In this document: piece after piece, positions 43,607-56,885 of the stretch
How the letters are laid out: each line of letters begins with the position of its first letter
Position numbering within the stretch: the stretch's first letter is position 1
Source of the DNA: a virus
Taxonomy: Duplodnaviria; Caudoviricetes
Length of the DNA: 58,397 bases
Virus record (IMG/VR): IMGVR_UViG_3300025466_000039
Span: 1-58,397 of that record
Reading direction: 5' to 3' (one strand)
Program-made: the position numbers and the translations under genes
Notes under the pieces: model-generated
The model's input: the letters and a program-made list of their open reading frames with translations, nothing else
What the model was told of the DNA's origin: nothing
Database searches by the model: none

Positions 43607-43793
43607 CGTTTTCTTCACTTTCTTTTAGCAGGTCTAGGAGGTGACGCTCTGCAATGGCCAGACCCGAAATAAGCCCGCAGAGTTTTTGATATTCTTCGAA
43701 AGAGCGGCATGCACCACCAGCCATATCATCGGCATAGTTGTTCATGTCAGTGCGTAATTTTTCGCGCAATACGCGTGCGAAGTCTTGGATCAT
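43599..43793 (-). CDS. hypothetical head-module protein
   Basis: G...FEEY...CG.I.GL motif after the portal. Confidence 0.7.
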   Translation of the reverse strand: MIQDFARVLREKLRTDMNNYADDMAGGACRSFEEYQKLCGLISGLAIAERHLLDLLKESEENDD

Positions 43794-46312
43794 TGTTTAC
43801 CTTTGTTGGCCTCTCGCCTTCTCATAGCAAGTTCGGCTTTGTGTTTAGCAATATCGGCACCGGTTTGTATGCCGATCTGTCTGTCAGCCGCGGCAGTCTG
43901 ATTTCTGTGTTTTGCAACATCAACAATCGTATTGAGTGCGGCCTGTTTCTCTTGTGTATCGATTTGGTTTTTGTGTTTGGCCATATCGATACCGGCTTTG
44001 TACGCACCTAGCTGTTGGTCGCCAGCTATTTTTTGTTGCTCTAAGGCTAGTTTTGCTTGAGCAATTTGCGCTTCCATCTGGGCCTTTTGGGCTTTGATTT
44101 GAACTTCTTGTTGTGCAATTTGCAGTTCTTGCTGTTGCATCTGTAGAACTGGGTCTTGCGCCTGTTGCTGGGCTTGCTGTTGTGCAGCCATTGCCTGATG
44201 TTGTTGCGCAACTTGTTGCGCTGCTTGGGCTAACATTCCAGACAATGCAGTCTCCAGTTGAGGAGTCATCTTTTCATCTTCGGGCGGCATTGCCATTCCG
44301 AGTTGTTCTTCTACCTGCTGACGATACATATACCCAGCATGCTCGCCCATATGCGCCTGAAGAGCCGCCATGATTTGATTGGCTTGGGGATTCTGACCAA
44401 TAATTGCCATGATCATTGGATCTTGCATCATCGACTGATGAACCTGAATATGCGCTTGATGATTCTGGAATAAGAAAGCCTTTAGCGGCTTGCCCTTAAG
44501 CGCCGCTTGGTTCTCAGATACAGGGTCCGTAGGTTTCTGATCATCTGGTAAAGGTACGAGTTTGTCCGCATTTTTAATTCCTAAAACATCTAACATTGAA
44601 CGGTGCAATTGCGGGAGATCATAAATCTGTGGCGCCATCTGGGCCATCTGTATCACAGCTTGATACTGCACCACTCTCTGAGAAAGAGTAGCCGCGTTAG
44701 GATCAGAAACCGGAATAATGTCTACTTTATCGTAATCGGCTTTCTTAGACTTCCTTCCGCCATACTCTGGGTCGTAGGTATAGTCTGGATCTGTGTAGTC
44801 TCGAATAATATTCTTGAGAAGTTTCAACTCCTGCTTTAAGGCAAAGTGTGTGCGCGCCTGCACTGCACTCAACACCTTTAGCTGTCTCTCAAGTAGAGCT
44901 AAAGTAGTTCCGACTGGTGTCTGGGCAGACATGTCGGACACACTCATATCGGCAGTAGCAGCAAACCTGCGGCCTTCTTCTACGATGTTATTGAGTAGTG
45001 TATAAAGAACTTGACTCGGTTCTTTGTAGGGTAAGGGTAATATAGAGTCGCGGATATTTCCTGACGCTACATCTACATCCCGGAATTCTCCCGGAGCAAT
45101 TGGGGTATCATCGCCCTTAATGCGAAGGCCCCTGGACTTGAGTCCCCCAGGCAAGTTTGATAAAGTTCCTGCATCAATGAGCTGTCGCATGATGCTAGTG
45201 GCAGATTTAGCAAACCCGCCAATGAGGTGGAAGAGCCCGAACCCATAAGCGCCAAAGCCGGGTATGTATTGGTAGTGGACAAAATGCTGTCTCTTGAGCC
45301 TGAGTTCGTCGCCTTCATTCCAGTTCCTCCTTACGGATAAGATATCATGAGTACCCTTAATTAAGGTCACGACATAAGGAACCATAATTCCAGTTTCGTT
45401 ACCTTCGTCATCAACATCCTCAAAACCATCCAATTCAAGATCAACGTGGCACTCATAAAGAGTATATCGTTCATCGTTCAAATCGCTAAATCCAGTCTCC
45501 TTGTCCTTCGCCATCTGGATATCTTCTCGCGAACGACTAGGATCGGGTAACTCTATATCACGGTAAAAACCGGCATTTTGTAACTTGACAATCTCATTCT
45601 TGGTCTTTCTCATGACGTGCGTCACTCGATAGCAGGTATCCATATCTGTAGTCCCGTAGGGAAGAATGATATCTTCGGCAGGGATAAACATAGAAACCTG
45701 GCGTCCTAGATTGGGATCGTAGTACACCTTCTTAAATGCAGAGCCAGTCGCTGGCAAAGACCAAAGCATGCGCTCATGTTCCGGCCTAAATTCTTTCATA
45801 ACTTCCGTCAATTCGTTGTTCATGTCGTCTTGAACATTGATGGATATTTCTCTGGTCTCGTTGGTTTCTTTGCCGATGATTTTGCTGCGAACCGGGCCTT
45901 GGGCTGGGAATGTTTCCGTGATCATCTCAGACTGGAACCTGACCACTGCCTCTGTAATCATAGGATGGAATACACCTGATGCACCGTCCCAGGGTTCTGT
46001 TCTCTCTTCTATATGCAGGCCGAGTAATTTAAGGCCCTCTGTATACGCTTTCTCCCAGTCTTTCCTGGAGTTCTTATCCTGATCAATACTTCTGTCTAAG
46101 TCTCCGGCCAATGTGGATAGCGCAGCTTCGCTTATTTCTTCTGCTAAATTATTGCTAAATCCCTCTTCATCACCTTTTTCCATATCAACCTCAAGATCGC
46201 CTGCTTTAATATGGACCGCTTCGGGATCTACGATTTCTATCTCCACAGGTTCCTGGTCTTGGGCTAAACTCTCAAGTCCAGCTGGGGCTTGGTTAAGTGA
46301 TTTGTCTATCAT
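43790..46312 (-). CDS. portal protein
   Basis: SR.DWE..Y..GL.LLG, HP...EA...FQ, GSAFKKVYYD, RQL.DAGTLSNLP.G; Q-rich C-terminal coil; follows terL. Confidence 0.9.
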   Translation of the reverse strand: MIDKSLNQAPAGLESLAQDQEPVEIEIVDPEAVHIKAGDLEVDMEKGDEEGFSNNLAEEISEAALSTLAGDLDRSIDQDKNSRKDWEKAYTEGLKLLGLHIEERTEPWDGASGVFHPMITEAVVRFQSEMITETFPAQGPVRSKIIGKETNETREISINVQDDMNNELTEVMKEFRPEHERMLWSLPATGSAFKKVYYDPNLGRQVSMFIPAEDIILPYGTTDMDTCYRVTHVMRKTKNEIVKLQNAGFYRDIELPDPSRSREDIQMAKDKETGFSDLNDERYTLYECHVDLELDGFEDVDDEGNETGIMVPYVVTLIKGTHDILSVRRNWNEGDELRLKRQHFVHYQYIPGFGAYGFGLFHLIGGFAKSATSIMRQLIDAGTLSNLPGGLKSRGLRIKGDDTPIAPGEFRDVDVASGNIRDSILPLPYKEPSQVLYTLLNNIVEEGRRFAATADMSVSDMSAQTPVGTTLALLERQLKVLSAVQARTHFALKQELKLLKNIIRDYTDPDYTYDPEYGGRKSKKADYDKVDIIPVSDPNAATLSQRVVQYQAVIQMAQMAPQIYDLPQLHRSMLDVLGIKNADKLVPLPDDQKPTDPVSENQAALKGKPLKAFLFQNHQAHIQVHQSMMQDPMIMAIIGQNPQANQIMAALQAHMGEHAGYMYRQQVEEQLGMAMPPEDEKMTPQLETALSGMLAQAAQQVAQQHQAMAAQQQAQQQAQDPVLQMQQQELQIAQQEVQIKAQKAQMEAQIAQAKLALEQQKIAGDQQLGAYKAGIDMAKHKNQIDTQEKQAALNTIVDVAKHRNQTAAADRQIGIQTGADIAKHKAELAMRRREANKGKQ
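44207..44220. promoter_or_regulatory. palindrome CGCAACTTGTTGCG (dispersed motif copy)
   Basis: Perfect copy inside the portal gene. Confidence 0.55.
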
Positions 46313-46320
46313 GATGTTCC

Positions 46321-46899
46321 TTAAATTAATTTCCAATTACCTGATGAATAATGTTGCGGCATTGCAACCCCACCGGACTTGTTACCTAAATCTTGTTTCA
46401 TATAGCTCTTTAATGAATCCAACATTTTGAGTTGGTCTTTGTTGTATTTCATTTCATCGTTGGCTTCTTTTGGCCATTGATTTAATAGATATCCTCGCAT
46501 TGCAGAGTCTGTTCCGTTTTGCACCGCATCTGCGGCCGGCCTGCCTTCGTCCATTGTTTGTTTAAAGTCACCAGAAACTGTAGCAAGTGTAGCAAGTTGC
46601 TTTGCAGTCATTGAATCTATTAAATCTTTTCTAGTTTTATTTGCAATGGGATCGACATGCATTAATTCGCCAGCCAAGTCGTGATGGGTAAATTCGTTGG
46701 GTTTGCCTATCATCACTCCGACTCTATCAATGGGAAATTCTTTTGGCCTTGGAGCGTTTGGAGCGCCGGGCTCATTTTGGGGCCATGTTTCAGCGTAGTC
46801 TTCCCCTGCATTTCCAACCATTACGATAGGATTATGTTTTGCAATAAATGGGTATTCTTCAACAGCTTTACTCATTAAATTGTTTATATAATCATCCAT
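46321..46899 (-). CDS. hypothetical protein between terL and portal
   Basis: 192-aa ORF ending KSGG...GNWKLI. Confidence 0.7.
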   Translation of the reverse strand: MDDYINNLMSKAVEEYPFIAKHNPIVMVGNAGEDYAETWPQNEPGAPNAPRPKEFPIDRVGVMIGKPNEFTHHDLAGELMHVDPIANKTRKDLIDSMTAKQLATLATVSGDFKQTMDEGRPAADAVQNGTDSAMRGYLLNQWPKEANDEMKYNKDQLKMLDSLKSYMKQDLGNKSGGVAMPQHYSSGNWKLI

Positions 46900-46907
46900 C
46901 TCAATCC

Positions 46908-48401
46908 TTAATAGTATGCGGCTCTACGACGGTAGGAAGACGGTTCGTCTTTCTCGTCAGAATTTAAAGACAAAAATCCGCCTTTTCTGAATCTCAGCAA
47001 TGCTTGGGTTGTTGAGTCCACAAGGTCATCATGGTCTGAGTTTGGGAATGCGGCCAGTTCTTCAATTACTTCATCCGCCCATCTGGTGGGTGGCGCCCAG
47101 ACCTTTCCGCTTGCAAAAAGATCAGACACTGAGTTAATCCTCACCATCTTATCATTTCCCCTGCTGGGCGTAAACTCTTGCACCGGGATACCCATCGCCC
47201 TTAATTCATAAATAAGAGGAGCTCCAGAAGCCTTTGCCTCTACGATAAACGCATCTGGCTCCCAGTTTCTATACTCTTCTAATGCTACCTGCTTAAGCTC
47301 TGGGAACTCCATCCGTCTTTTAAATGCATCTAATAATATTACATGGGGATCTCGGACGTTCTCGTTAAGATAAAACACACCCCAGGTCGTACAAGCAGAG
47401 TAGTCGCTTCGTTCGTTCTTGGTAAAAGCCGTATCCCAAGACTGAATAATATACTCACATACAGGAACATTATCTTCCCATATCTTCCACCATTCTCTCT
47501 TGACGATAGCCCCTTCCTCCGAGGTAGGGGACTGCATGTATTGGGCATTCCATTTCGCAGCGGGGAGTTCGGACTTGAGTGCCAGCAACTCCTCTAGCCG
47601 CCAAAACTCTGGCCACAGGGGATTCCCGCTTGGCATAATTGCCGGCAACTGAATAACCTCCCACTTCTCTCCGTCCCTGTCGATCATGGACTGGATGATC
47701 TTGCCTGTTAAATCTTTCTTCGCCCATCTGGTCATCACCACCACAATAGCCCCGCCTGGTTGTAGACGCTGACGAGGTCCGGATGTGTACCACTCATAAA
47801 CTTTATCAAACACCGTTGGGTCTCCGGCCGCTAGAGCTGCCTCCTGTTCCGAATGCGGGTCATCGATAATAAGAAGGTCAGCTCCTTTACCCGTTACCGT
47901 ACCGCCAACACCGATCGCAAAGTATTCGCCATTCTTATTCGTACTCCATCTTCCAGCGGCCTTACTATCCGACCTCAGATTCACAAATGGGAATATCTTA
48001 TGGTATGTCTCAGAGGCTACCAGGTTCCTCACCTTACGGCCGAATCCAACAGCCAACTCGGCAGTATTGGATGTTTGGATAATCTTCTTCCCCGGGTATT
48101 TACCCAGGAACCAGGCGGGCAACAGAAAAGACGCAAACTCAGACTTGGTATGCCGAGGCGGCATGTTAATGATCAAACGCTTTAACTTACCACTAGCGAT
48201 CTCTTCAAACTTCTCTGCCATTAACTCATGATGCCGCCCATGTATAAACCCAGGCCACATCTCAGAAACAAACTGCATAAAGTCATCGGCGGCTTTCTCT
48301 ACGTTGAGGCTCTCCTTGTACACCTCAAACATATCCCACATCTCCTCCGCCAACTCCGGAGGCATGTTCTGTATCGCCGCTTCCATCTGCTCTACATTCA
48401 T
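46908..48401 (-). CDS. terL: terminase large subunit
   Basis: INMPPRHTKSE (Walker A), LLIIDDP (Walker B), SWDTA, HDDLVDS nuclease motifs. Confidence 0.95.
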   Translation of the reverse strand: MNVEQMEAAIQNMPPELAEEMWDMFEVYKESLNVEKAADDFMQFVSEMWPGFIHGRHHELMAEKFEEIASGKLKRLIINMPPRHTKSEFASFLLPAWFLGKYPGKKIIQTSNTAELAVGFGRKVRNLVASETYHKIFPFVNLRSDSKAAGRWSTNKNGEYFAIGVGGTVTGKGADLLIIDDPHSEQEAALAAGDPTVFDKVYEWYTSGPRQRLQPGGAIVVVMTRWAKKDLTGKIIQSMIDRDGEKWEVIQLPAIMPSGNPLWPEFWRLEELLALKSELPAAKWNAQYMQSPTSEEGAIVKREWWKIWEDNVPVCEYIIQSWDTAFTKNERSDYSACTTWGVFYLNENVRDPHVILLDAFKRRMEFPELKQVALEEYRNWEPDAFIVEAKASGAPLIYELRAMGIPVQEFTPSRGNDKMVRINSVSDLFASGKVWAPPTRWADEVIEELAAFPNSDHDDLVDSTTQALLRFRKGGFLSLNSDEKDEPSSYRRRAAYY

Positions 48402-48712
48402 TCCAAATCCCTAAACTTAATATAAACAGGCCGAACACTTCTGTCCTTATTCGCGAGTTTCTTACAAACCCCCAAATTACACAAGTTCCTAATCACCCTC
48501 ACCAAATTCGCCCGACCCTTATCCCCAGTCGCCCGCATAATGTCCTCGTAAGAAGGACCATACCCAAATTTCTTCCAATGCTCATCTATTACCAAAAACA
48601 CATTCCTCTCTTTAGGCGTCATATCCATCTCCATACACTCCGTCTCCGATAACCTACCAGGCCGAGACATCGCTTTCAATTCCTTCTTCGTATGTATGTA
48701 CTTCTTTTTCAT
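48398..48712 (-). CDS. LexA-like winged-HTH DNA-binding protein (no peptidase domain)
   Basis: MTPKE..V...I......GYGPSYEDI....G......V...L...G. Confidence 0.7.
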   Translation of the reverse strand: MKKKYIHTKKELKAMSRPGRLSETECMEMDMTPKERNVFLVIDEHWKKFGYGPSYEDIMRATGDKGRANLVRVIRNLCNLGVCKKLANKDRSVRPVYIKFRDLE

Positions 48713-48715
48713 TAC

Positions 48716-48812
48716 CGCAACATGTTGCGCTCTTAACGCTTTTTCTAAAAATATACACCCCCACCCTATTTTGTTTCAGAGACTGACGGGGGGGGTTCCG
48801 CAACATGTTGCG
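48716..48812. promoter_or_regulatory. two CGCAACATGTTGCG palindromes (48716-48729, 48799-48812)
   Basis: Perfect palindromes; the first lies 4 nt upstream of the annotated start of the LexA-like gene. Confidence 0.7.
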
Positions 48813-49497
48813 CTGGGTCTAGATCGGAATTTTCGATGGATTGAGTGAGTGGAGTAGTATGCGTAGGATCCCCGCCCGCCTCGAGCTCAGTCGCGGGGGG
48901 TGCCCCGTGGGTGGGGTCGCGCCCTTCGGATATCTCTTCCAGCAATGACCTCCCGCCTGAGCGCGCCGGCTTGGCGTCCACGTCCACCACTGATTTGATT
49001 CTCTCCAGTAGCTGAGCCTTGATGTCTCCGCTCTTAACGTGCGTGACTGTAGTCTCTTTGCGCTCCATGAATGCACCGACGTCGTACAGTTTGCCGATGA
49101 GTTCTAGCGCCTTCATTCGTTGGGCCGGTGGAAAATCCTCATCAATGGAGTGCTTGACCAATTGGTGGATTAGCAGTGCCTTTAATTCTCTAGGGGTTCG
49201 CAGTTTCTCCGCCTCAATCGCCAGCCTGTAAGCGTTCACCTCTTGGATCACGCGTGGATCACTGGCGAGCTTGTACGGGTCACTGGCGAGCGTATAGTCA
49301 CTCCGAGCGTTATATGTCTCTCTGTATGCTTGTCTCTTGCTCATTGTCCCCTCTGCTAGTTTACGCGCGTACTCTCTCTGTTTACTTGTGAGCGGTTGTT
49401 TTGTCCCTAAGATTGACTCTATTGGCGTGCTCTCCAGTGTTTCCCTTATTTGCGCCCTGGTTAACTTTTTAGTGGGCGCGCGTTTTGTTGCCGGCAT
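48766..49497 (-). CDS. terS: terminase small subunit
   Basis: LTSKQREYA.......SKRQAYRE.Y and RMKALELIGK motifs; GGAGG RBS; upstream of terL. Confidence 0.75.
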   Translation of the reverse strand: MPATKRAPTKKLTRAQIRETLESTPIESILGTKQPLTSKQREYARKLAEGTMSKRQAYRETYNARSDYTLASDPYKLASDPRVIQEVNAYRLAIEAEKLRTPRELKALLIHQLVKHSIDEDFPPAQRMKALELIGKLYDVGAFMERKETTVTHVKSGDIKAQLLERIKSVVDVDAKPARSGGRSLLEEISEGRDPTHGAPPATELEAGGDPTHTTPLTQSIENSDLDPAQHVAEPPPSVSETK

Positions 49498-49590
49498 GAT
49501 TCTACCCTCCAATTTCCTATACTTGACGCGAGTATAAACGCAAACAGCACTCCATGCAAACACCCCCAAAATCAAATTGTAGTCCTTATA

Positions 49591-49625
49591 AATCAACAAC
49601 TTACACGCGCTGGCACGATTTTTTC
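49591..49625 (+). promoter_or_regulatory. IHF consensus site plus sigma54-like -24 box
   Basis: AATCAACAACTTA fits WATCAANNNNTTR; then TGGCAC-GATTT-TTTC (the -12 GC is imperfect). Confidence 0.45.
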
Positions 49626-49691
49626 CCCATATAAGGTATGGGGTATCAAAAAACAGAGCCTCATATTTTCAACAACTAAGGAAAACACACT

Positions 49692-50003
49692 ATGTATTCA
49701 CAATTCAAAACTCTAGAAAATCTAATCGATTATCACCTCACCAGTGAGCAAACCATGTACCTGTGCGACTTGACCGGCCTAAGTGTTGACGATCGCGGGT
49801 TTGACTCGCTCCAACACTGGTTCGACATCAACGACCCATTCCACACCGCCTCGAAAACCATGCGCGAGATTGGTGGCTCATTTGCCGGTGCGATCGGCGA
49901 GGCTTACCAGTGCGCCGACTCTCGCAACCGCTTGATCTTAATTACCGCCTTCAAGGATCTATTCGTTCGCTTTATGCCCACTAGTGTGACTGATGAGGCT
50001 TGA
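49692..50003 (+). CDS. early hypothetical protein
   Basis: AAGGA RBS; GGSFA....AY..AD..N...L..AF motif. Confidence 0.75.
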   Translation: MYSQFKTLENLIDYHLTSEQTMYLCDLTGLSVDDRGFDSLQHWFDINDPFHTASKTMREIGGSFAGAIGEAYQCADSRNRLILITAFKDLFVRFMPTSVTDEA

Positions 50004-50033
50004 TTAGCCGAAACCCCGCGAGGGGTCTCACAC
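49984..50033 (+). ncRNA. hammerhead ribozyme, type I (HH1)
   Basis: GTGTGA-CTGATGA-GGCT tgatt AGCC-GAAA-CCCC gcga GGGG-TC^-TCACAC. Confidence 0.93.
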
Positions 50034-50049
50034 AACTACTGGAGAACCA

Positions 50050-50499
50050 ATGAAAAACGAAATTATCTTAGCCCTTCACACCTTCGCACGCAAGCGCCCT
50101 CAGCTTGAATACGGCAACTATGGGAGCGCCTCGAGTTACCGCGCGGAGGCGCGCGCCATTACAAGAGACTTGCAACACGCACGCGCTCTACTTCGCAAAG
50201 TGGAGTTATCGGGTATCACCGCTCAAGATTTAATCAAGGCGAGTACTGAGGCATTCTCAGGCCGGTTAACGATTATGCCCGCCAACTCTTACAGCGACAA
50301 AATCCGGATCGATTATTGTGTTGGCCAATATTGGCCGACCGAATACCGCAAAGCAGTTTGCGCAGTATTGGCTCGCGCACTCTGGAATCACTGGATGGAA
50401 GATCGAAAAGAGGGCGAGTTTATGACCACCCGCCAAAAAATCCGCATACTGGCGCGCGTGGAGCTTGGAAGAACTATAGCGCAAGTCTATTTTAATTAA
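50050..50499 (+). CDS. early hypothetical protein
   Basis: GGAG RBS; RP.LEYGNYG...YRAE.R.IT.D; Y..GQYWPTEYRKA. Confidence 0.8.
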   Translation: MKNEIILALHTFARKRPQLEYGNYGSASSYRAEARAITRDLQHARALLRKVELSGITAQDLIKASTEAFSGRLTIMPANSYSDKIRIDYCVGQYWPTEYRKAVCAVLARALWNHWMEDRKEGEFMTTRQKIRILARVELGRTIAQVYFN

Positions 50500-50549
50500 G
50501 CATAACTGACGAGGCTTAATGAGCCGAAACCCCCGCGGGGGTCTTATGC
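50500..50549 (+). ncRNA. hammerhead ribozyme, type I (HH2)
   Basis: GCATAA-CTGACGA-GGCT taatg AGCC-GAAA-CCCC cgcg GGGG-TC^-TTATGC. Confidence 0.93.
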
Positions 50550-50569
50550 AACAACAAGGAAACAAAACA

Positions 50570-50734
50570 ATGATTTTACTTACAAAATTTTGGGGTTATC
50601 TCACCCTCAAAACCGCGCTTTGTCTCGGCGGGTATGCGGTAACAGTCTTACAAGGCTCACCCAGTCAAACCCTCTTGATTGTCGGCTCATTGTCGGCTCT
50701 TGCAATCCCAGTATTTTATTATTTTGGAGAGTGA
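50570..50734 (+). CDS. small two-TM membrane protein
   Basis: AAGGA RBS after HH2; hydrophobic. Confidence 0.6.
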   Translation: MILLTKFWGYLTLKTALCLGGYAVTVLQGSPSQTLLIVGSLSALAIPVFYYFGE

Positions 50735-50738
50735 CACC

Positions 50739-50915
50739 ATGCTAATCGCTTACCACGCAAAACATGAGCGCCACGGATGGCGCGAGATATGTCGTCAACC
50801 TATCGACTGGGATGGATGGGGAGATTTCGACCGCTCCATGATTGACGAACTAATCAAAAACGGGTCTCACGTTTTAACGTGCGGGTGGAATATGTACCAA
50901 CTAATTGAGGGTTAA
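50739..50915 (+). CDS. early hypothetical protein
   Basis: GGAG RBS; MLIAYHAKHE... Confidence 0.6.
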   Translation: MLIAYHAKHERHGWREICRQPIDWDGWGDFDRSMIDELIKNGSHVLTCGWNMYQLIEG

Positions 50916-50918
50916 ATT

Positions 50919-51566
50919 ATGAGAGTAATTATGCTGAAAAAAGAGGCGAGCGCGCTTACTGGTGGACTCACCGAAACTTCTAAGATGCCTTGCAAGTCCT
51001 ACAGTTTACCGACTGAGGCGTGCGAGACCGGTTTCAAAATGGCTCAAATTGAGGGGTCGATCTGTTTTTCATGCTATGCGGATCGTAATTTTTATTTGAT
51101 GTATCAAAACACAATTAAACCCGCCCAATTCGCTCGACTTGATTCAATTAATGATTCCCATTGGGTGGACGCGATGGTTACTCTAATTGGCTTAGATCCT
51201 TATTTTAGGTGGCACGACTCCGGAGATCTCCAAGGCCTTGATCACTTCAAGAAAATTATAGAGGTTGCGACATTGACGCCAAAAACAAAACACTGGCTTC
51301 CGACCCGTGAATACTCAATTATTAAGGATTTTATCTCAGCCGGTGGCGTAATCCCCAAAAACTTAATTGTCCGGCTCTCGGGTATGTATCCTGACAAGGC
51401 CGTAAAAGTCCCCAAAAGCCTCGAAGGCGTGCGAGGCGTGACAACGTCTAACGTCCACACCAAAAAGCCTCTAGGGCTCGCCTGTAAAGCCCCAGAGCAA
51501 GCCGGCGAGTGTCGCGATTGTCGCGCGTGTTGGACTTCGAAACCGGTGTCCTACTTGATGCACTAG
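50919..51566 (+). CDS. GP88-like Cys-rich protein (possible radical-SAM-related fold)
   Basis: TSKMP....LP...C..G....IC..CYA, FRWHDSGD, HWLPTRE, C.....C..C.ACW. Confidence 0.75.
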   Translation: MRVIMLKKEASALTGGLTETSKMPCKSYSLPTEACETGFKMAQIEGSICFSCYADRNFYLMYQNTIKPAQFARLDSINDSHWVDAMVTLIGLDPYFRWHDSGDLQGLDHFKKIIEVATLTPKTKHWLPTREYSIIKDFISAGGVIPKNLIVRLSGMYPDKAVKVPKSLEGVRGVTTSNVHTKKPLGLACKAPEQAGECRDCRACWTSKPVSYLMH

Positions 51567-51617
51567 CATGACTGATGAGGCCTGAGAGGCCGAAACCCGA
51601 GCGATCGGGTCTCATGC
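51566..51617 (+). ncRNA. hammerhead ribozyme, type I (HH3)
   Basis: GCATGA-CTGATGA-GGCC tgaga GGCC-GAAA-CCCGA gcga TCGGG-TC^-TCATGC. Confidence 0.93.
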
Positions 51618-51633
51618 AACTACAAGGGAAACA

Positions 51634-51801
51634 ATGAAATATTCCGAATTTGACTATATCCAAGCCGGTTATCTATTTGAGAAAAACCGCATTAAGCTCG
51701 CACGATTTGAGCGTATGCTCGCGCGCGAATATCAGGAACACAAAAACAAAGCGGTCTTTTTGTTCAACCGCGGTCGATTGGAGGCTCGCTCATGTATCTA
51801 G
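51634..51801 (+). CDS. 55-aa early protein (not in ORF track)
   Basis: AAGGGA RBS after HH3; MKYSEFDYIQAGYLFEK... Confidence 0.65.
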   Translation: MKYSEFDYIQAGYLFEKNRIKLARFERMLAREYQEHKNKAVFLFNRGRLEARSCI

Positions 51802-51974
51802 TCTTTAACCACAATGCCCGATTTTTGGGCGACTTTGCGACCATGCATGAGGCTCAAACTGAGGCCATGCTCTATATGGGGCAAACCGGAAACCCCGCCT
51901 ACATCACAACCCGCAACTTGTTGCGCCCCGAAGAGCGCGACTCTTACGAACAATTTTTGGAGATACACGAATGA
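51792..51974 (+). CDS. early hypothetical protein
   Basis: GGAGG RBS; coupled; contains a palindrome copy at 51912-51925. Confidence 0.65.
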   Translation: MYLVFNHNARFLGDFATMHEAQTEAMLYMGQTGNPAYITTRNLLRPEERDSYEQFLEIHE

Positions 51975-52204
51975 CTTCTATCGCAACAAAATATAACTGG
52001 TTACTGGTGGACAAAACCGGCGTAGCAGTCCCCAAGGGCGCGATCATCAAAACACGCAACGGCGAAGAGTTCGAGCTCACTGGGGGGAGACCCCCGCACA
52101 ATGACGGCTCAACCGGTCGCGTATGGGTTAAGCCCGTGGGCGAACCCGAAACCACGCAAGAGCTCTACCCGACAGTTTTTGATCTGAAATGGGAAATAGT
52201 CTAA
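51971..52204 (+). CDS. early hypothetical protein
   Basis: GGRPPH..GSTGRVWV...YP.VF.L.W. Confidence 0.75.
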   Translation: MTSIATKYNWLLVDKTGVAVPKGAIIKTRNGEEFELTGGRPPHNDGSTGRVWVKPVGEPETTQELYPTVFDLKWEIV

Positions 52205-52256
52205 GCGCAACTGATGAGCCCTGACTGGGCGAAACCCGCGCGAGCGGGTCTTGTGC
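52205..52256 (+). ncRNA. hammerhead ribozyme, type I (HH4)
   Basis: GCGCAA-CTGATGA-GCCC tgact GGGC-GAAA-CCCGC gcga GCGGG-TC^-TTGTGC. Confidence 0.93.
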
Positions 52257-52275
52257 AACTACAGGAGGCCAAAAA

Positions 52276-52512
52276 ATGGCACGATTAATTAAAACTGAGA
52301 AACAATGGGTAATTCGTGACGAATGGTGCGAGGATGATATCACCGACCAATGCGAGCAAATCGGCGAAGAGCTCACCCTTGACGAAACCCGCAAAGTGTT
52401 GGAGATCATCGTCAAATCACACGATGCTGAAATTGGCATTAACTGGAATTCAATCAATTCAGCAATCGATGAGGTCTTGATGCTACGCGATCAAGAGGCC
52501 GAAAGGGATTAA
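52276..52512 (+). CDS. early acidic protein
   Basis: AGGAGG RBS; W..DDI...LT..E...VL......HDAEIGINW. Confidence 0.8.
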   Translation: MARLIKTEKQWVIRDEWCEDDITDQCEQIGEELTLDETRKVLEIIVKSHDAEIGINWNSINSAIDEVLMLRDQEAERD

Positions 52513-52515
52513 AAA

Positions 52516-52845
52516 ATGACTTGTTCAAAATGTAACTCACCTACAAGTAACACTTGGGATTGTGAATGCCAGTATGAAAAGGTAGACCCGATGCTACGGG
52601 CTAAGATTTTAGCCAAACTAACACCGCAAGAACTCGATCCAGAAATGTACTCTGATTCGGACACATGGGGCTCAACTGAGGTTGATGGGGTTATGTATGA
52701 CCTCAATTTTTGGTTTGATGAAGATCAATTCAATATCACCGCTTACTTTTTAACCGAGGAAGATGGTGTTGTTGTCACGGATAACTGTAGATTTTTTAGG
52801 ATTTTGTCTAAAACTGTTAAGGTAATAGACGAGGAGAATGAATAA
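52516..52845 (+). CDS. early acidic protein
   Basis: ORF in the early run. Confidence 0.6.
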   Translation: MTCSKCNSPTSNTWDCECQYEKVDPMLRAKILAKLTPQELDPEMYSDSDTWGSTEVDGVMYDLNFWFDEDQFNITAYFLTEEDGVVVTDNCRFFRILSKTVKVIDEENE

Positions 52846-53033
52846 TGGCACCAATTGACCAAGCATTTTTTGAGATGTATCGCGGATCTATTTCTGAGTG
52901 CGATGACGAAACAATTTTGCGCTTTTTGAAGGATAACGAATCAGTAGATAGTTTTGAAGGATATACACATTTGATGGATACCTATATTGCATTCGAGGCC
53001 GGTATTAAATACGCAAGGGAAAATCCAATATGA
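52845..53033 (+). CDS. early acidic protein
   Basis: TAATG coupling. Confidence 0.65.
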   Translation: MAPIDQAFFEMYRGSISECDDETILRFLKDNESVDSFEGYTHLMDTYIAFEAGIKYARENPI

Positions 53034-53158
53034 CCGCACAAGAACTATACGAGGCCTTAGAAAAAGCCGGCATTGACTTTGAGGTTGTCGAGATATTCGA
53101 AGGATGCCGGTGGCTTAGATTTGACGTTGAAGAAGAAACAGACGAGGAGAATGAATAA
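53030..53158 (+). CDS. 42-aa acidic protein (not in ORF track)
   Basis: ATGA coupling; MTAQELYEALEKAGIDFEVVEIFEG... Confidence 0.6.
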   Translation: MTAQELYEALEKAGIDFEVVEIFEGCRWLRFDVEEETDEENE

Positions 53159-53349
53159 TGATGGATCGAAGAATTAAAAGTTATGCGGTGCAAATTACTT
53201 GGGATGACGGAGAAACAGAAATTCGTGAGGATTTCCCGCCTATTCCCTACATCGAAGAGTGGATGGATGAGATTGAATTAGAAGAAAACAAAGCCTGCAA
53301 CATGATTGTGGATGATGTTGAAAAAGACGAAGGGGTGAATGAAGAATGA
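53158..53349 (+). CDS. early acidic protein
   Basis: TAATG coupling; very D/E-rich. Confidence 0.65.
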   Translation: MMDRRIKSYAVQITWDDGETEIREDFPPIPYIEEWMDEIELEENKACNMIVDDVEKDEGVNEE

Positions 53350-53556
53350 TAACCATATTTTTTGAGATCGATGGCCACGTCTTTGAGTCGGCCACATTTG
53401 CCAACGAGGGACTTTATATTGCGTGCTACGGGGCTCTTGAGCACTATGCGCGCCTCAACAACTTTGACATGACGGAGGTGGTGACATGATAAGGAGTCAA
53501 TTTGACTAGATGCGAAGAATTGGGAGTCTGTCAATCCATTGGGTGCGCAGACTGCC

Positions 53557-53594
53557 CGCAACTTGTTGCGGTGGAAGACCCGCAACTTGTTGCG
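53557..53594. promoter_or_regulatory. tandem CGCAACTTGTTGCG palindromes (53557-53570, 53581-53594)
   Basis: Located at the convergence of the early operon and the primase gene. Confidence 0.7.
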
Positions 53595-53595
53595 C

Positions 53596-54372
53596 TTACA
53601 GCATTTTTACAAGGCTTTCACCCGCCAACTGAGACCCAACCCGAGCCTCAAAATCGTTAAAATCCTCCCCCTCTTCACCTACCCAGTAGCATGAGGCTAT
53701 TTTTTCTGCCGTTTTCACTCCAACTGGATCGTTGTCCGCAACAACAAGAGGCTTATTTAAGGACTTCGCGATCTCAATCATATTAGAGGCTGAGAAACAA
53801 ATATGTATCTTATACCTCACCCGCAACAATTTCAGGGCTCTACGGATCGATAAACCGGTCGCATACCCCTCACAAATAATATCCCGTCCCTTATTGTCTA
53901 TCACGAGGCTTGCGCCCTTGGTAATCTGACCCGACAAAAACTTTTTATTGCCGTCCTTGTCGATCAGCTGACAACCCACCAACTTGTCTCCGACCCGCAT
54001 TGTGACGACCAACAAATCCTTCCATACGAGGCCACGCTCGGTGAAACCTTTGCGAATTAAGTACGGGTGGGACGAAAGAACCCCGCTCTTGACGATGTAA
54101 ACCGCCTTCTTTCTAGCCTCCTCCTGCCGGTGGAGGCGGTCTTGGTTTACTCTCGCAATCTTCTGTTGGTCGATTACATGAGGCTTGTCGGTCTTGTAAG
54201 GCGCGTGAGATTCCATAGTCGCAAAGTTAATAACGGCACCACCGACCCCATCGAATATGTATGCGCCGTTGGTTTTGGTGGGTTTGTCTAGCGTCTTGAC
54301 CCTAGCCCACCGATCCATCACAAGATTCTCAATAATGAGGCCGTGCTGATATGCAAAGTCCTCGAATGTCAT
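53596..54372 (-). CDS. Toprim-domain DNA primase
   Basis: HPYL.RKG, Q.ID.DG.KKFL.G, ICEGYATG.S, ADND, DFND; ATGA overlap with the helicase. Confidence 0.85.
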   Translation of the reverse strand: MTFEDFAYQHGLIIENLVMDRWARVKTLDKPTKTNGAYIFDGVGGAVINFATMESHAPYKTDKPHVIDQQKIARVNQDRLHRQEEARKKAVYIVKSGVLSSHPYLIRKGFTERGLVWKDLLVVTMRVGDKLVGCQLIDKDGNKKFLSGQITKGASLVIDNKGRDIICEGYATGLSIRRALKLLRVRYKIHICFSASNMIEIAKSLNKPLVVADNDPVGVKTAEKIASCYWVGEEGEDFNDFEARVGSQLAGESLVKML

Positions 54373-55838
54373 GCTTTCTGTCCCTTTGCCCATGCTATTT
54401 GCCTCGAGCGTATCCAATTTACAGTTTTTTGCGTTGTTGGAATTGTGTTGGAATTCAACCCGCGAGGGAAGACCCCAAACTTTTCTTTGTATTTGTGCGC
54501 TGCCCAACCATCCTTGTACCCGCGCAAGCGACAATAGTACAACAATTCAGAATAGAAAACTTGATTTGTATCGACCGCCGTCCTGGTTCCCGTTAATTCG
54601 TGGAGCTCACCTGGCACACTTGCGATACCCTTGAGTGGCTTTTCATGCCCACAAAACACGCAAGCAATCGAACCCTTCTCCCAGAGGCTACCGCAAGCCG
54701 GACACTTCGAATCTTTCTTTTCCTTCTCGGTCGGTTCTTTCTTGGTCTTTTCACCGCCTCCGCTCTCGAGCTCTGTCACCCCTTCATCGAAGAGCTTGTC
54801 CCAATCCGAGCGGAATCGCAGGTAATTACCAGAGTGATCCAGCCAAACCCCAAACTTTTTATCTGGAGATGGGCGCATAATCCTACCCATCTGTTGAACG
54901 TGCGAGCTGAATGACTTAGAAAATGGCCTCGCTGAGACCCCTATAAGCACATCTGGGACGTCAAATCCGCGGGTGAGTATGTCGGTGGCTATGAGGCCGT
55001 GAATATCTGTATCAGGGCGACCAAAGTCCTCAATGATTTCACGCTTGTAATCATCGTCTTCAAGATAGGATATGGATTTAAAGTTATATCCTTGGGCTTG
55101 AAACTGTTTCTCAAGGTCTCGTCCGTGGGCAACGCCCGCACAGAACACAACAGTCTTCTTGGGGCCACCAAAAATGTCGTGGGTTTTTTTAATCCATTCT
55201 GTGACGATGTCTCCGGTAATCTTCATGCCCCGCTCGGTGACTTGATCTTGTGACCATTCACCAGCAACCTTGGTGACCCCCGTCATGTCGATTTCTTTTG
55301 AGATAAAAATCTTTAGCTGAGTCAACCAACCTTTGTCGATCAAGTCTCCCGTGGAGGTGGCTCCAACCACATGAGAGTAAACATCTCCGAGCCCCGCGGT
55401 GAATGGCGTGGCTGTTAATCCAATTACTTTAAGGTCGGGATTGTCCTCAATGAACCTAACAACACTCTTACGCTGAACATGACATTCATCGATGATTAAG
55501 TATTGTAGATCGGGGAATTCATCTCTTTTTTCGAGGGTCTGAGCGGAACATATTTGGATTCTTTCGAATGGCCTGTACCGCCAGTGGTCAGCCTGCATGA
55601 CGCCGTGCTGAATTTGGTACCGCGCGAGGCGGGTACTGGTTTGGTTGACCAAGACGATGCGATCCATAACCATCGCAACACGCTGTCTCTTGTCTGCAAT
55701 TTCCTGCATCAAAGATATAGCAACCTCAGTCTTGCCAAAACCCGTTGGAGCATAGAGCAATTGCGCTCTATGTCCATCCTCAAAGCCCTTGTTGATTTTC
55801 TCAACCACCTCAACTTGGTGGGGTCTTAATTCAAGCAT
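54369..55838 (-). CDS. superfamily 2 helicase (DExH) with C-terminal Zn ribbon
   Basis: APTGFGKT, IIDECH, GLTATP, GFDVP, QQMGRIMR, CPAC/CVFCG. Confidence 0.9.
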   Translation of the reverse strand: MLELRPHQVEVVEKINKGFEDGHRAQLLYAPTGFGKTEVAISLMQEIADKRQRVAMVMDRIVLVNQTSTRLARYQIQHGVMQADHWRYRPFERIQICSAQTLEKRDEFPDLQYLIIDECHVQRKSVVRFIEDNPDLKVIGLTATPFTAGLGDVYSHVVGATSTGDLIDKGWLTQLKIFISKEIDMTGVTKVAGEWSQDQVTERGMKITGDIVTEWIKKTHDIFGGPKKTVVFCAGVAHGRDLEKQFQAQGYNFKSISYLEDDDYKREIIEDFGRPDTDIHGLIATDILTRGFDVPDVLIGVSARPFSKSFSSHVQQMGRIMRPSPDKKFGVWLDHSGNYLRFRSDWDKLFDEGVTELESGGGEKTKKEPTEKEKKDSKCPACGSLWEKGSIACVFCGHEKPLKGIASVPGELHELTGTRTAVDTNQVFYSELLYYCRLRGYKDGWAAHKYKEKFGVFPRGLNSNTIPTTQKTVNWIRSRQIAWAKGQKA

Positions 55839-55867
55839 TTAAACTCCTGATGGGATAGTGCCCAACT

Positions 55868-56644
55868 TCACTTTTTCTCTAGTTTTTCCGCTCTGCGTTT
55901 CCAGTATTTCACTTGATTGATAGCGTCTGCGGCCTTTTGTTGGAAGTCATTTCTACTGATAGTCATGGCTTCTAATAAAGATTGTAAGCGAGAATTTTCA
56001 GCACGCAACGATTCCATTGTTTCTTCGAGGGTTATTTTCTCTTCGCCCTCTATGTCGTACTGGCCAATTGCAATTTTGTCTCTGAGTTTTGTATTCTCCG
56101 CAAGCAGTGCTTTGTTTTCTGTTATGAGCTCGTTTACTTCATCAGCAACATATTCATCCGCTGGCTCCGGTGTGATCTCTGCTTTTGGCTTCTGAGTGGT
56201 CTTCTGTGTTTTCTTTAGCTCTAGTTCTTTTTTGTATCGACCAATTGTCATGTCTGATACTTTGCATATTTTTGCCAAATCTTTATTTGACAGCATGCTC
56301 AACTCTACGTCAGCGAGTGCTCTAGCAATACTTCTGCGCTTGTCTTCGTTTGATCTTGGTAGGCCGTGATCGTGATTTGCGCCCAGGGAATACTCCCATG
56401 CATCGCGTTTTGTACCATTAACGATGTCGGCATTTATTGCATCAATCTTTGCTCTTTTGTGAGCAAAGTATCTATGGAATCCATCTGCAAGCCACCAGTC
56501 TTTGCCATCATAAAAGACTTTAACGGGTTTAAATGTTTCGCCCTCCATGAGCTTTTCGGTGTAATCCAATACTGTTGCCTCTTTGAGCGACTCTCTGGAT
56601 TGTGTATCTCCATCAATTCTTATTTTTGCTAAATTAATTTTCAT
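55868..56644 (-). CDS. ParB/Srx-like N-terminal domain protein with HTH and coiled coil
   Basis: F.PV.VF.DG..WWLADGFHR..A, AN..HGL.R; LSNKDLAKICKVSDMTIGRY HTH. Confidence 0.8.
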   Translation of the reverse strand: MKINLAKIRIDGDTQSRESLKEATVLDYTEKLMEGETFKPVKVFYDGKDWWLADGFHRYFAHKRAKIDAINADIVNGTKRDAWEYSLGANHDHGLPRSNEDKRRSIARALADVELSMLSNKDLAKICKVSDMTIGRYKKELELKKTQKTTQKPKAEITPEPADEYVADEVNELITENKALLAENTKLRDKIAIGQYDIEGEEKITLEETMESLRAENSRLQSLLEAMTISRNDFQQKAADAINQVKYWKRRAEKLEKK

Positions 56645-56885
56645 AGTCTCTTTCGTTCCATTCTGGATCATCAAAACAAATCACCGGTGTATCAATACCG
56701 ATGTATGCACCTATCACATTAAACTCAAGAAATTCATGAGCATCTTCTTCGTCCATGTCATCTCGCGTCATTAAAAGATCAATCATCTTATCGCCACTGT
56801 AAACCAATACTTCAACAGTAATTTGGTCTCGCCAAATACTAGCGGTGCCAATGACGCAATCGTCAAACCCGTACCACTTTTTCAT
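56634..56885 (-). CDS. conserved small phage protein
   Basis: GFDDC.IG...VY...K....L....M..EDA.EF.EFN..GAY.G..TP. Confidence 0.8.
   Translation of the reverse strand: MKKWYGFDDCVIGTASIWRDQITVEVLVYSGDKMIDLLMTRDDMDEEDAHEFLEFNVIGAYIGIDTPVICFDDPEWNERDYEN

What the first reader, a model, noticed from the sequence alone, without database searches (positions are those of the whole stretch)
49984..52256. Four hammerhead ribozymes punctuate the early operon: a self-processing polycistronic mRNA
Seen: four complete type I hammerheads (49984-50033, 50500-50549, 51566-51617, 52205-52256). Each has a CUGANGA core, a 4-bp stem II with a 5-nt loop, GAAA, stem III and a GUC cleavage triplet. Stems differ between copies but pairing is kept (stem I GUGUGA/UCACAC, GCAUAA/UUAUGC, GCAUGA/UCAUGC, GCGCAA/UUGUGC), which indicates selection on structure. 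HH2-4 start at the upstream gene's stop codon, and HH1 contains it in loop II. Predicted cuts after 50027, 50543, 51611 and 52250 leave 22-26 nt leaders before the next ATG. Established: hammerheads yield 5'-OH and 2',3'-cyclic phosphate ends, and 5'-OH RNAs are poor substrates for 5'-monophosphate-stimulated RNase E. Inference: a protein-independent analogue of the T7 early RNase III sites, giving stabilised mRNA units with uniform leaders for host-takeover genes. Isolated hammerheads in phage DNA are known; I cannot confirm whether this operon-wide arrangement has been described.
Basis: partly seen in the sequence, partly recalled or inferred. Interest (0 to 1): 0.95.

Follow-up and report, generated by a model that had tools for sequence, protein, structure and literature searches.

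The report
Four hammerhead ribozymes between phage genes
A freshwater phage carries four well-formed self-cutting hammerhead RNAs in the gaps between blocks of small genes, a clean but ordinary example of an arrangement described in phages since 2011 whose purpose is still untested.

Summary
A core pattern with no stem requirement matches exactly four sites, all on the + strand (0.15 expected). All four fold into the three-way junction. They show a canonical core, varying only at free position N7, and co-varying stems. Related phages carry the same type I hammerheads at the same place beside the terminase genes: 13 of 33 loci with enough flank. Each ribozyme fills one of the four real intergenic gaps of a 14-gene + strand module. 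Each would cut 22-26 nt before the next start codon. Rfam models do not reach their thresholds, but the field's descriptor criteria are met. Cleavage could not be tested: the one RNA run gave five short, low-depth contigs with no ends at the cut sites. The idea of a self-processing polycistronic mRNA is plausible, but it was published by Perreault et al. 2011 (PMC3088659). This scan has already noted such arrays 401 times on other DNA. 'Early', 'host takeover' and 'stabilised' remain inference. Verdict: new member of a known kind, modest interest.

The parts
49984..50033 (+). HH1, a type I hammerhead with the predicted cut after C50027. Its 5' half is also the last codons and the stop (TGA 50001-03, in loop II) of ORF 49692-50003.
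   Evidence: model R1 67.9 bits
50500..50549 (+). HH2, a type I hammerhead (N7 = C) with the predicted cut after C50543. It starts directly after stop TAA 50497-99.
   Evidence: R1 74.7 bits
51566..51617 (+). HH3, a type I hammerhead with the predicted cut after C51611. Its first G is the last base of stop TAG 51564-66.
   Evidence: R1 75.1 bits
52205..52256 (+). HH4, a type I hammerhead with the predicted cut after C52250. It starts directly after stop TAA 52202-04.
   Evidence: R1 78.1 bits; the only copy that Rfam aligns in register
50028..50049 (+). Predicted 22-nt leader after cleavage: the stem I 3' strand, then AACUAC, then the Shine-Dalgarno site, before ATG 50050.
50544..50569 (+). 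Predicted 26-nt leader before ATG 50570.
51612..51633 (+). Predicted 22-nt leader before ATG 51634.
52251..52275 (+). Predicted 25-nt leader before ATG 52276.
49670..49691 (+). Leader of the first gene. It carries the same CAACAACUAAGGAAA-type motif as the post-cleavage leaders but has no hammerhead in front.
   Evidence: compared
49692..53489 (+). The + strand module of 14 small ORFs: 49692-50003, 50050-50499, 50570-50734, 50739-50915, 50919-51566 (Pfam GP88), 51634-51801, 51792-51974, 51971-52204, 52276-52512, 52516-52845, 52845-53033, 53030-53158, 53158-53349 and 53346-53489. The four hammerheads split it into five blocks. Within a block, neighbouring genes overlap or lie at most 4 nt apart.
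48766..49599 (-). Small terminase subunit gene, the first gene of the divergent structural operon. It fixes where the module lies in the genome.
53596..54534 (-). Primase-like gene, the last gene of the convergent replication operon.

Best explanation
The four elements are functional type I hammerhead ribozymes, transcribed as part of one + strand message that covers a hypervariable module of 14 small accessory genes. Each ribozyme fills one of the four real gaps between translationally coupled gene blocks. After transcription, and after the ribosome has left the upstream stop codon (which abuts or lies inside the ribozyme), the three-way junction folds. It cuts after C17 (50027, 50543, 51611, 52250). 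Because stem I is the open stem, the whole ribozyme body stays on the upstream fragment. That body is two G+C-rich hairpins ending in a 2',3'-cyclic phosphate, and it acts as a structured 3' end. The downstream fragment starts with a 5'-OH and a short, unstructured 22-26 nt leader of uniform design: the stem I 3' strand, AAC(U/A)AC, a Shine-Dalgarno site, then AUG. The message is thus divided into five independent mRNAs whose decay and translation are uncoupled. Shown here: the motif, its structure, its conservation and its placement. Inferred: transcription, cleavage in vivo, and any effect on stability or translation.
For: 1. Four stem-agnostic core matches were found against 0.15 expected, all on the coding strand.
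2. Each copy's minimum-energy fold is the hammerhead junction.
3. The core is invariant except at N7, which is free to vary.
4. Covariation was counted on 34 copies (32 distinct) from this phage and its terminase relatives. 98.9% of cells are paired, against 31-39% when the partners are slid. 10 of 14 pairs change on both sides.
5. In a test that does not presuppose pairing, 103 of 131 unique core-pattern hits in IMG/VR have 6 of 6 stem I pairs, against 6.7% in the control.
6. A model built on the family finds exactly the four copies in the window at 68-78 bits; the next best hit scores 14.7 bits.
7. Hammerheads sit at the same genomic position in 13 of 33 relatives that have at least 4.5 kb of flank, and nowhere else in those loci. 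The closest relative, L125, has all four in front of the orthologous genes.
8. A population variant has paired insertions after 50016 (G) and after 50022 (C), which add one G-C pair to stem III of HH1.
9. Placement is regular. All 4 junctions with a gap of 46 nt or more hold a hammerhead; the other 9 of the 13 junctions are overlaps or gaps of at most 4 nt.
10. Across 178 unique phage hammerheads of this class, 145 of 172 have a Shine-Dalgarno site, a start codon and an ORF within 80 nt of the cut. The median leader is 27 nt.
11. Published precedent: clustered prophage hammerheads cleave about 2-kb polycistronic constructs in vitro, and the A. tumefaciens triple set also self-cleaved in vivo after cloning in E. 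coli. In haloviruses HF1/HF2, a mapped 5' end lies within 3 nt of a hammerhead cut site 13 nt before an early gene (PMC3088659, passages read).
Against: No experimental or read evidence of cleavage or even of transcription exists for this locus. The single RNA run holds 5 short contigs at depth 2-3, some of them diverged, and none ends at a cut site; DNA carry-over cannot be excluded.

Rfam's curated hammerhead models do not reach their thresholds for any copy.

No base-paired tertiary contact (pseudoknot) between loop II and the flanks was found by eye. Activity at physiological Mg2+ therefore rests on an inferred non-canonical contact.

20 of the 33 relatives lack hammerheads, and in L127 and L128 the ortholog of gene 52276 has none in front. 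The ribozymes are therefore dispensable for these genes.

Predicted accessibility of the ribosome-binding site barely differs between uncut and cut RNA: 0.45-0.79 against 0.57-0.77. Unmasking of the ribosome site is not supported.

Whether a 5'-OH end stabilises or destabilises the RNA depends on the host's RNases, and the host is unknown.
Confidence: 0.75

Rival explanations
1. The hammerheads are portable junction modules, not tuned processing sites. Each supplies stop codons in all frames, a cut, and a standard leader with a ribosome site. As short near-identical repeats they also act as recombination points where accessory genes are gained and lost. This does not exclude cleavage.
For: All 4 window copies carry stops in all three frames between -3 and the end of stem II. 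In the wider set, upstream frames end at -1/0, +5, +9 (the core UGA) or +19 (loop II) in most cases; 163 of 174 end between -12 and +30. Gene content of the module differs strongly even between relatives with 93-98% identical terminase. One DNA contig in run X23 joins 49978 to 50505, that is HH1 to HH2, and lacks gene 50050-50499. Loose ends at 52230 show relatives with a different 5' half of HH4 and a different upstream gene.
Against: Only 60 of 177 hammerheads of the class have stops in all three frames. The four window copies are related to each other, so 4 of 4 is not independent evidence. Several differences between relatives do not have hammerheads at both ends: gene 50739 is missing in L125, and HH4 plus two genes are missing in L127. 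The X23 joint rests on one contig with a 28-nt side.
Confidence: 0.2
2. Cleavage is gated by translation. Upstream ORFs stop at or inside the ribozyme, so a terminating ribosome keeps stem I and stem II unfolded. The cut would then happen only once translation of the upstream gene ceases, tying mRNA fate to ribosome traffic.
For: The ORF 49692-50003 reads through stem I, the core and stem II of HH1 to a stop in loop II. The other three stops abut stem I. The L125 ortholog (81% identical) reads in the same frame to the loop II TGA; I read this by eye from the L080 sequence line printed. In the wider set, upstream frames end at positions inside the ribozyme in many cases: 19 at +5, 35 at +9 and 14 at +19, of 163.
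Against: Overlap of stops with a downstream element is also what simple genome compaction gives. There are no kinetic or expression data.
Confidence: 0.15
3. The motifs no longer cleave, or never cleave at cellular Mg2+. They act only as structured 3' ends, pause sites or protein-binding sites.
For: No Rfam threshold is reached. No pseudoknot-type tertiary contact is evident. There is no RNA end evidence.
Against: All 13 core positions used as the field's criterion are canonical in 4 of 4 copies and in the relatives. Selection for mere hairpins would not hold CUGANGA, GAAA and UH invariant while the stems co-vary. The fixed 6-bp stem I, the A / AA flanks and the UNANU loop II look like a conserved tertiary contact.
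Confidence: 0.08
4. The segments between two cuts are ligated into circular mRNAs, either by the reverse hammerhead reaction or by an RtcB-type ligase.
For: Each internal segment would carry a 5'-OH and a 2',3'-cyclic phosphate. The 5' end left by HH2 (UUAUGC) can pair 6 of 6 (one G-U) with the stem I 5' strand of HH3. This was read by hand from the sequences.
Against: The other two segments fit poorly: 3 of 6 pairs for HH1 to HH2 and 4 of 6 for HH3 to HH4, by the same reading. Perreault et al. report that they could not detect spliced or circular products (PMC3088659). No back-splice joint was seen, though the RNA data were far too thin to show one.
Confidence: 0.04

Closest known systems
Clustered hammerhead ribozymes flanking single genes or short gene blocks in prophages (Perreault et al. 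2011, PLoS Comput Biol, PMC3088659; passages read)
   Same: Several canonical hammerheads lie within a few kb on the coding strand of phage DNA. They bracket single genes or short blocks whose identities are not constant. The proposed role is the same: cutting long phage transcripts into operon- or gene-length mRNAs.
   Different: Here all four are type I, in an uncultured freshwater phage related to HTVC023P/027P-type pelagiphages at 53-59% TerL identity. None has been assayed. Their figures, supplementary figures and Dataset S1 could not be seen, so I cannot say whether this exact subclass is in their alignments.
HHphage of haloviruses HF1/HF2 (as described in PMC3088659)
   Same: A hammerhead sits a few nucleotides (13 nt) upstream of the start codon of an early gene at the head of a polycistronic transcript. 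A mapped 5' end lies within 3 nt of the cut.
   Different: HHphage is a single variant-core hammerhead that needs high Mg2+. The present copies have canonical cores, lie inside the operon, and number four.
Type I hammerheads in the UTRs and intergenic regions of RNA viruses (Lopez-Galiano et al. 2026, NAR, PMC13725137; passages read)
   Same: A type I hammerhead with a long helix III spans a short intergenic region, with the cut a few nt before the next ORF. Self-cleavage is linked to translation of the downstream ORF.
   Different: Those are eukaryotic RNA viruses using cap-independent initiation. Here a DNA phage uses Shine-Dalgarno-led initiation, and predicted ribosome-site accessibility does not depend on the cut.
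RNase III processing sites of the phage T7 early transcript (recalled knowledge, not from a call)
   Same: The outcome is analogous: one long early RNA is cut in intergenic regions into separate mRNAs that keep a hairpin at the 3' end.
   Different: T7 sites are long imperfect hairpins cut by a host protein and leave 5'-phosphate and 3'-OH ends. The present elements are three-way junctions with 4-6 bp stems that would cut themselves and leave 5'-OH and cyclic phosphate ends.
RiboJ-type synthetic ribozyme insulators (recalled knowledge, not from a call)
   Same: A hammerhead placed just upstream of a ribosome-binding site removes the upstream RNA context and gives a defined 5' leader.
   Different: RiboJ is engineered, derived from a satellite-RNA hammerhead, and followed by an added hairpin. 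The present elements are natural and leave an unstructured leader.

Membership tests
Hammerhead ribozyme (any type) | Canonical core: C3 U4 G5 A6 N7 G8 A9, G12 A13 A14, A15.1-U16.1, H17 (the criterion in the methods of PMC3088659) | tested here: met
   All four copies read CUGA(U/C)GA ... GAAA ... UC, and N7 is the only variable position.
Hammerhead ribozyme (any type) | Three helices around the core, with no mispair next to the core (1.1-2.1, 10.1-11.1, 15.1-16.1) | tested here: met
   The minimum-energy folds give the junction in 4 of 4 copies. The core-adjacent pairs are A-U, G-C and A-U, invariant in 32 of 32 distinct rows.
Hammerhead ribozyme (any type) | Helices supported by compensatory changes | tested here: met
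   10 of 14 pairs change on both sides. 98.9% of cells are paired, against 31-39% when slid (the rows were picked by a pairing-aware regex). In the unbiased test, 103 of 131 hits have 6 of 6 stem I pairs against 6.7% in the control.
Hammerhead ribozyme (any type) | Score at or above the gathering threshold of an Rfam hammerhead model | tested here: not met
   There are 0 hits at gathering scores. The best scores are HH9 at 23.3 bits against 52 and Hammerhead_1 at 19.1 bits against 34, both for HH4 only. I file the elements as hammerheads on the descriptor criteria above and treat this as a limit of the models.
Hammerhead ribozyme (any type) | Site-specific self-cleavage giving 2',3'-cyclic phosphate and 5'-OH ends | not testable with these tools
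   The RNA contigs of the one run were too sparse to show ends.
Type I topology | Stem I is open; stems II and III are closed by loops | tested here: met
   The order is stem I 5' strand, core, stem II hairpin, GAAA, stem III hairpin, UC, stem I 3' strand in all four copies.
Extended (fast) natural hammerhead | [quoted passage not shown] | tested here: inconclusive
   No pseudoknot was found. The class has a fixed 6-bp stem I (144 of 177). A is at -1 in 128 of 144, A at +1 in 125 of 144 and A at +2 in 111 of 144. Loop II reads U-N-A-N-U (117, 111 and 100 of 120). This is the kind of pattern a non-canonical contact would leave, but no more than that.
Clustered gene-flanking hammerheads of phages and prophages (Perreault 2011) | Several hammerheads within a few kb, on one strand, flanking genes in phage DNA | tested here: met
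   Four copies lie within 2.3 kb on the coding strand of a phage that encodes terminase, portal, primase and helicase.
Clustered gene-flanking hammerheads of phages and prophages (Perreault 2011) | Cleavage of the polycistronic RNA at every site | not testable with these tools
   This needs in vitro transcription or end-specific RNA sequencing.
RNase III processing site (T7 early type) | A long, near-continuous double-stranded hairpin as substrate of a host enzyme (feature recalled, not from a call) | tested here: not met
   The stems have only 4-6 pairs around a three-way junction. The resemblance is functional only.

The most novel reading that the evidence does not exclude
In this widespread phage subclass the type I hammerhead is a self-contained 'stop, cut, restart' junction. 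It ends any upstream reading frame with stops built into stem I, the core and loop II. It waits for the terminating ribosome to leave before it can fold, then cuts. It hands the next gene a standard leader. As a short conserved repeat it also serves as the recombination point through which accessory genes are swapped between related phages. The ribozyme would then be an organiser of gene-cassette exchange and of translation-gated mRNA decay, not merely a processing site.
Probability: 0.15. Interest if true: 0.55.

Novelty: new member of a known kind. Interest (0 to 1): 0.3.

Why it matters
The biological purpose of the many hammerheads in phage genomes is still open. A 2019 review says additional work is needed to define the purpose of these bacterial and phage-associated ribozymes (PMC6765202). 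A 2026 paper still calls the roles of genomic ribozymes elusive in most cases (PMC13725137).

This locus adds no new principle. It is a tidy test case:
- four canonical ribozymes;
- one per real intergenic gap;
- defined predicted fragments of 516, 1068 and 639 nt;
- close relatives with and without individual copies.

The class-level regularities measured here give concrete hypotheses for experiments on why phages prefer a ribozyme to a host RNase at these sites. These regularities are a fixed 6-bp stem I, conserved A / AA flanks, a UNANU loop II, a median 27-nt leader, and upstream stops inside the ribozyme.

Tried and rejected
**Rfam.** The whole window at gathering scores gave nothing. E-value mode on 45000-58397 gave only sub-threshold and partly mis-registered hammerhead matches. 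RF00163 on the genome gave 19.1 bits for HH4 only. Nine relatives without hammerheads also gave 0 Rfam hits. That null says little, because the same thresholds miss the window's own copies.

**DNA similarity.** blastn of the module against 50,697 phage records found no match.

**RNA evidence.** One metatranscriptome run (X24) held 6% of the sampled words. Laid on the stretch, it gave 5 short contigs at depth 2-3. There was no cover between 50046 and 50969 or after 52026, and no ends at the cut sites. This is no evidence for or against transcription or cleavage.

**Promoters and terminators.** Counts of consensus sites were at the shuffled expectation, and there was no convincing + strand promoter before 49692.

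**Gene function.** PHROGs, Pfam and the ESM Atlas left the flanked genes unnamed. The exceptions are Pfam GP88 for 50919-51566 and two PHROGs of unknown function. 'Host takeover' could therefore not be tested.

**Unmasking of the ribosome site by cleavage.** Rejected: predicted accessibility is about the same in uncut and cut RNA.

**Pseudoknot between loop II and the flanks.** I looked by eye in the four copies and found no consistent pairing.

**Other hammerhead topologies in relatives.** A type II/III descriptor scan of 81 sources gave 5 scattered candidates. One overlaps a type I copy already counted. There was no systematic replacement.

**Cultured relatives.** Model R1 found nothing in Pelagibacter phage HTVC027P or in phage 023Pt_psg01.

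**Literature.** These searches found nothing beyond Perreault 2011 on phage hammerhead arrays:
- ('hammerhead ribozyme', 'bacteriophage', 'polycistronic')
- ('hammerhead', 'phage', 'self-cleaving', 'metatranscriptom')
- ('hammerhead ribozymes', 'prophage', 'mrna processing')
- ('hammerhead', 'phage genome', 'ribozymes', 'intergenic')
- ('hammerhead ribozyme', 'phage', 'early genes')

Subscription journals are not covered by the library. For all four papers cited I read only passages returned by 'find'. Supplements are closed, so Figure 3, Figures S1-S5 and Dataset S1 of PMC3088659, which may show this very subclass, were not seen.


Full report
**What is there.** The window is a 58,397-base virus record, estimated 97% complete. 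Structural genes lie on the minus strand: small terminase 48766-49599, large terminase 46908-48401 and portal 43790-46336. Replication genes also lie on the minus strand: primase-like 53596-54534 and helicase 54369-55838. Between them sits a plus-strand module of 14 small ORFs, 49692-53489. The module diverges from the terminase genes and converges on the primase gene. The nearest cultured phages by large terminase are marine. They are phage 023Pt_psg01 (59%), DSL-LC04 (58.5%), and Pelagibacter phages HTVC027P (54.5%) and HTVC023P (52.8%). The DNA recurs in many freshwater metagenome runs.

**The observation.** A pattern made only of the hammerhead core (CTGANGA, CGAAA, GTC, with free spacers) matches four times, all on the plus strand. 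0.15 matches are expected, and none of 100 shuffles reached four. The reversed-pattern control and the minus strand gave nothing. Each match is flanked by a perfect 6-bp stem I. Each contains a 4-5 bp stem II and a 5-6 bp stem III closing a 4-nt loop (GCGA in HH1, HH3 and HH4; CGCG in HH2). The minimum-energy fold of every copy is the three-way junction, with z-scores of -2.3 to -3.1. The four copies differ in 4 of 6 stem I pairs and in pairs of stems II and III, always keeping the pairing. The single variable core base is N7, the one core position that is free in hammerheads.

**Rfam.**
- There are no hits at gathering scores.
- HH4 reaches 23.3 bits on Hammerhead_HH9, where the cut-off is 52.
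- HH4 reaches 19.1 bits on Hammerhead_1, where the cut-off is 34.
- HH2 and HH3 align only in a wrong register as type III, and HH1 does not align at all.

I nevertheless file the elements as hammerheads. They meet each descriptor criterion used in the field: all core positions are canonical and there are no mispairs next to the core (methods passage of PMC3088659).

**Relatives.** The large terminase has at least 598 relatives in IMG/VR, of which 80 loci were kept. A descriptor scan found type I hammerheads upstream of the terminase genes on the opposite strand, the same place as in the window. This holds in 13 of the 33 loci that have at least 4.5 kb of upstream DNA, with one to four copies each and none elsewhere in those loci. 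A covariance model was built from the 4 window copies plus 30 relatives' copies.
- With filters off it finds exactly the four copies in the window, at 67.9-78.1 bits; the next hit scores 14.7 bits.
- In 39 relatives' loci it finds the same set plus two more.
- It finds nothing in the 20 relatives that the descriptor scan called empty.

On the MAFFT alignment of the 34 copies (32 distinct), 98.9% of cells are standard pairs, against 31-39% with slid partners. 10 of 14 pairs change on both sides, and the covariation score is 0.698 against 0.175 for shuffles. These rows were chosen by a regex that already asked for some pairing. I therefore also took the 131 unique IMG/VR hits to a core pattern that does not constrain stems I and II. 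Of these, 103 have 6 of 6 stem I pairs, against 6.7% when the 3' strands are dealt among the hits. 123 have at least 4 consecutive stem II pairs, against about 7% after shuffling. A population variant in two DNA runs carries an inserted G after 50016 together with an inserted C after 50022. Together these add one G-C pair to stem III of HH1.

**Placement.** Of the 13 junctions between the 14 ORFs, nine are overlaps or gaps of at most 4 nt. Four are gaps of 46-71 nt, and each of those four is filled by a hammerhead plus leader. The ribozymes thus separate five translationally coupled blocks of 1, 1, 3, 3 and 6 genes.

The same design recurs across phages. Among 178 unique hammerheads of this kind in the fetched loci, 145 of the 172 with enough downstream DNA have a Shine-Dalgarno site, a start codon and an ORF of at least 30 codons within 80 nt of the cut. 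The median leader is 27 nt (interquartile range 25-34). In 163 of 174, an upstream frame of at least 40 codons ends between -12 and +30 of the ribozyme's 5' end. The peaks lie directly before stem I, at the end of stem I, at the core UGA and in loop II. Other contigs hold 4-5 copies each: L016, L019, L073, L083.

The class has further regularities:
- stem I has 6 bp in 144 of 177;
- A is at -1 in 128 of 144;
- A is at +1 in 125 of 144 and at +2 in 111 of 144;
- loop II has 5 nt and reads U-N-A-N-U (117, 111 and 100 of 120).

I read this as the footprint of a non-canonical loop II to stem I contact, of the kind that natural fast hammerheads need (introduction of PMC3088659). That reading is inference. 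The first gene of the module has the same CAACAACUAAGGAAA-type leader without a ribozyme. The cut would therefore give every block a leader like that of the primary transcript.

**How it most likely works.** Stem I is the open stem, so cleavage after C17 leaves the whole ribozyme on the upstream RNA. That RNA then ends in two G+C-rich hairpins and a 2',3'-cyclic phosphate. The downstream RNA begins with a 5'-OH and a short leader that is predicted to be unstructured. The likely outcome is five independent mRNAs whose decay and translation are uncoupled. I give 0.75 to the statement that the ribozymes cut the message in this way.

The further claim, that the products are stabilised because 5'-OH ends evade RNase E, is possible but depends on the host and is untested. 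Cleavage does not appear to unmask the ribosome sites: predicted accessibility is 0.45-0.79 uncut and 0.57-0.77 cut. 'Early' and 'host takeover' are guesses. The genes are ORFans apart from a GP88-family protein. The module is hypervariable between close relatives, which fits an accessory module of any timing.

**Evidence against, and limits.** Nothing shows transcription or cleavage. The one RNA run gave five short low-depth contigs, and none ended at a cut site. 20 of 33 relatives have no hammerhead. In L127 and L128 the ortholog of gene 52276 (87% identical) follows the ortholog of 51634 without a ribozyme. The elements are therefore not essential to these genes. Cultured relatives HTVC027P and 023Pt_psg01 have none, so no laboratory system is at hand.

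**Comparison with what is known.** Perreault et al. [quoted passage not shown] They report that three tandem arrangements cleaved at all sites in about 2-kb transcripts in vitro; the A. tumefaciens triple arrangement also self-cleaved in vivo after cloning in E. coli. They also note a halovirus hammerhead 13 nt before an early gene, with a mapped 5' end at the cut. They could not detect spliced or circular products (PMC3088659, passages read). A 2019 review repeats the processing idea and says its purpose is unresolved (PMC6765202). A 2026 paper links type I hammerheads just upstream of ORFs in RNA viruses to translation initiation (PMC13725137). Earlier notes of this scan list 401 findings of such arrays in at least 361 genomes, some with 10-33 copies. 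The present case is a small, clean, new member of a known kind.

**Rivals and the boldest reading.** Three ideas are not excluded.
1. The hammerheads are portable 'stop, cut, restart' junctions and recombination points. In favour: three-frame stops in 4 of 4 window copies, a DNA variant joining HH1 to HH2 without the gene between them, and hypervariable content. Against: only 60 of 177 copies of the class have stops in three frames, and several gene-content differences do not end at hammerheads.
2. Cleavage is gated by the ribosome that terminates at or inside the ribozyme.
3. The segments are circularised. Only the HH2-to-HH3 segment has compatible ends: 6 of 6 pairs, against 3 of 6 and 4 of 6 for the other two, read.

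I give the combined junction reading 0.15.

Noticed in passing
window 53555-53594, also 51906-51921: Two tandem copies of the palindrome-containing unit CCCGCAACTTGTTGCG lie in the convergent gap between the + module and the primase gene. Another copy lies inside ORF 51792-51974. The pair at the convergent junction could be a bidirectional terminator or a protein-binding site.
   Followed up: partly
window 49600-49691: The 92-nt divergent gap between the small terminase gene and the first + ORF holds a 7-bp inverted repeat, CCCCATA-TAAGG-TATGGGG (about 49626-49644), flanked by a T run and an A run. No consensus sigma-70 promoter is found on the + strand.
   Followed up: partly
window 49984-50003: HH1 is dual-coding. 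The last six codons (S V T D E A) and the stop of ORF 49692-50003 are stem I, the core and stem II of the ribozyme. By eye, from the L080 sequence line, the L125 ortholog reads in the same frame to the loop II TGA.
   Followed up: partly
window 49978-50505 (run X23); 50016/50022 (runs X20, X23); 52230 (runs X14, X20, X23): Population variants occur in lake metagenomes. One contig joins HH1 to HH2 and lacks gene 50050-50499. A paired insertion makes stem III of HH1 identical to that of HH4. Some relatives have a different 5' half of HH4 and a different upstream gene.
   Followed up: partly
loci L005-L124 (IMG/VR), e.g. L019, L073, L016, L083: Type I hammerheads of the same build are common in unrelated viral contigs, up to 5 per contig. 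The build is a 6-bp stem I, A / AA flanks, a UNANU loop II, and a ribosome site and ATG about 27 nt after the cut. Successive copies in one contig often share an identical stem I.
   Followed up: partly
window 7729-16839 (-): A 3036-aa ORF carries an LPD38 domain (large polyvalent protein associated). Its C-terminal third matches PHROGs of very large proteins of unknown function. It is probably a giant virion or ejection protein.
   Followed up: no
window 53134-53337: DNA contigs in three runs (X14, X20, X23) skip 202 bases here and have CAGGA in between. This is a variant lacking most of ORF 53158-53349.
   Followed up: no
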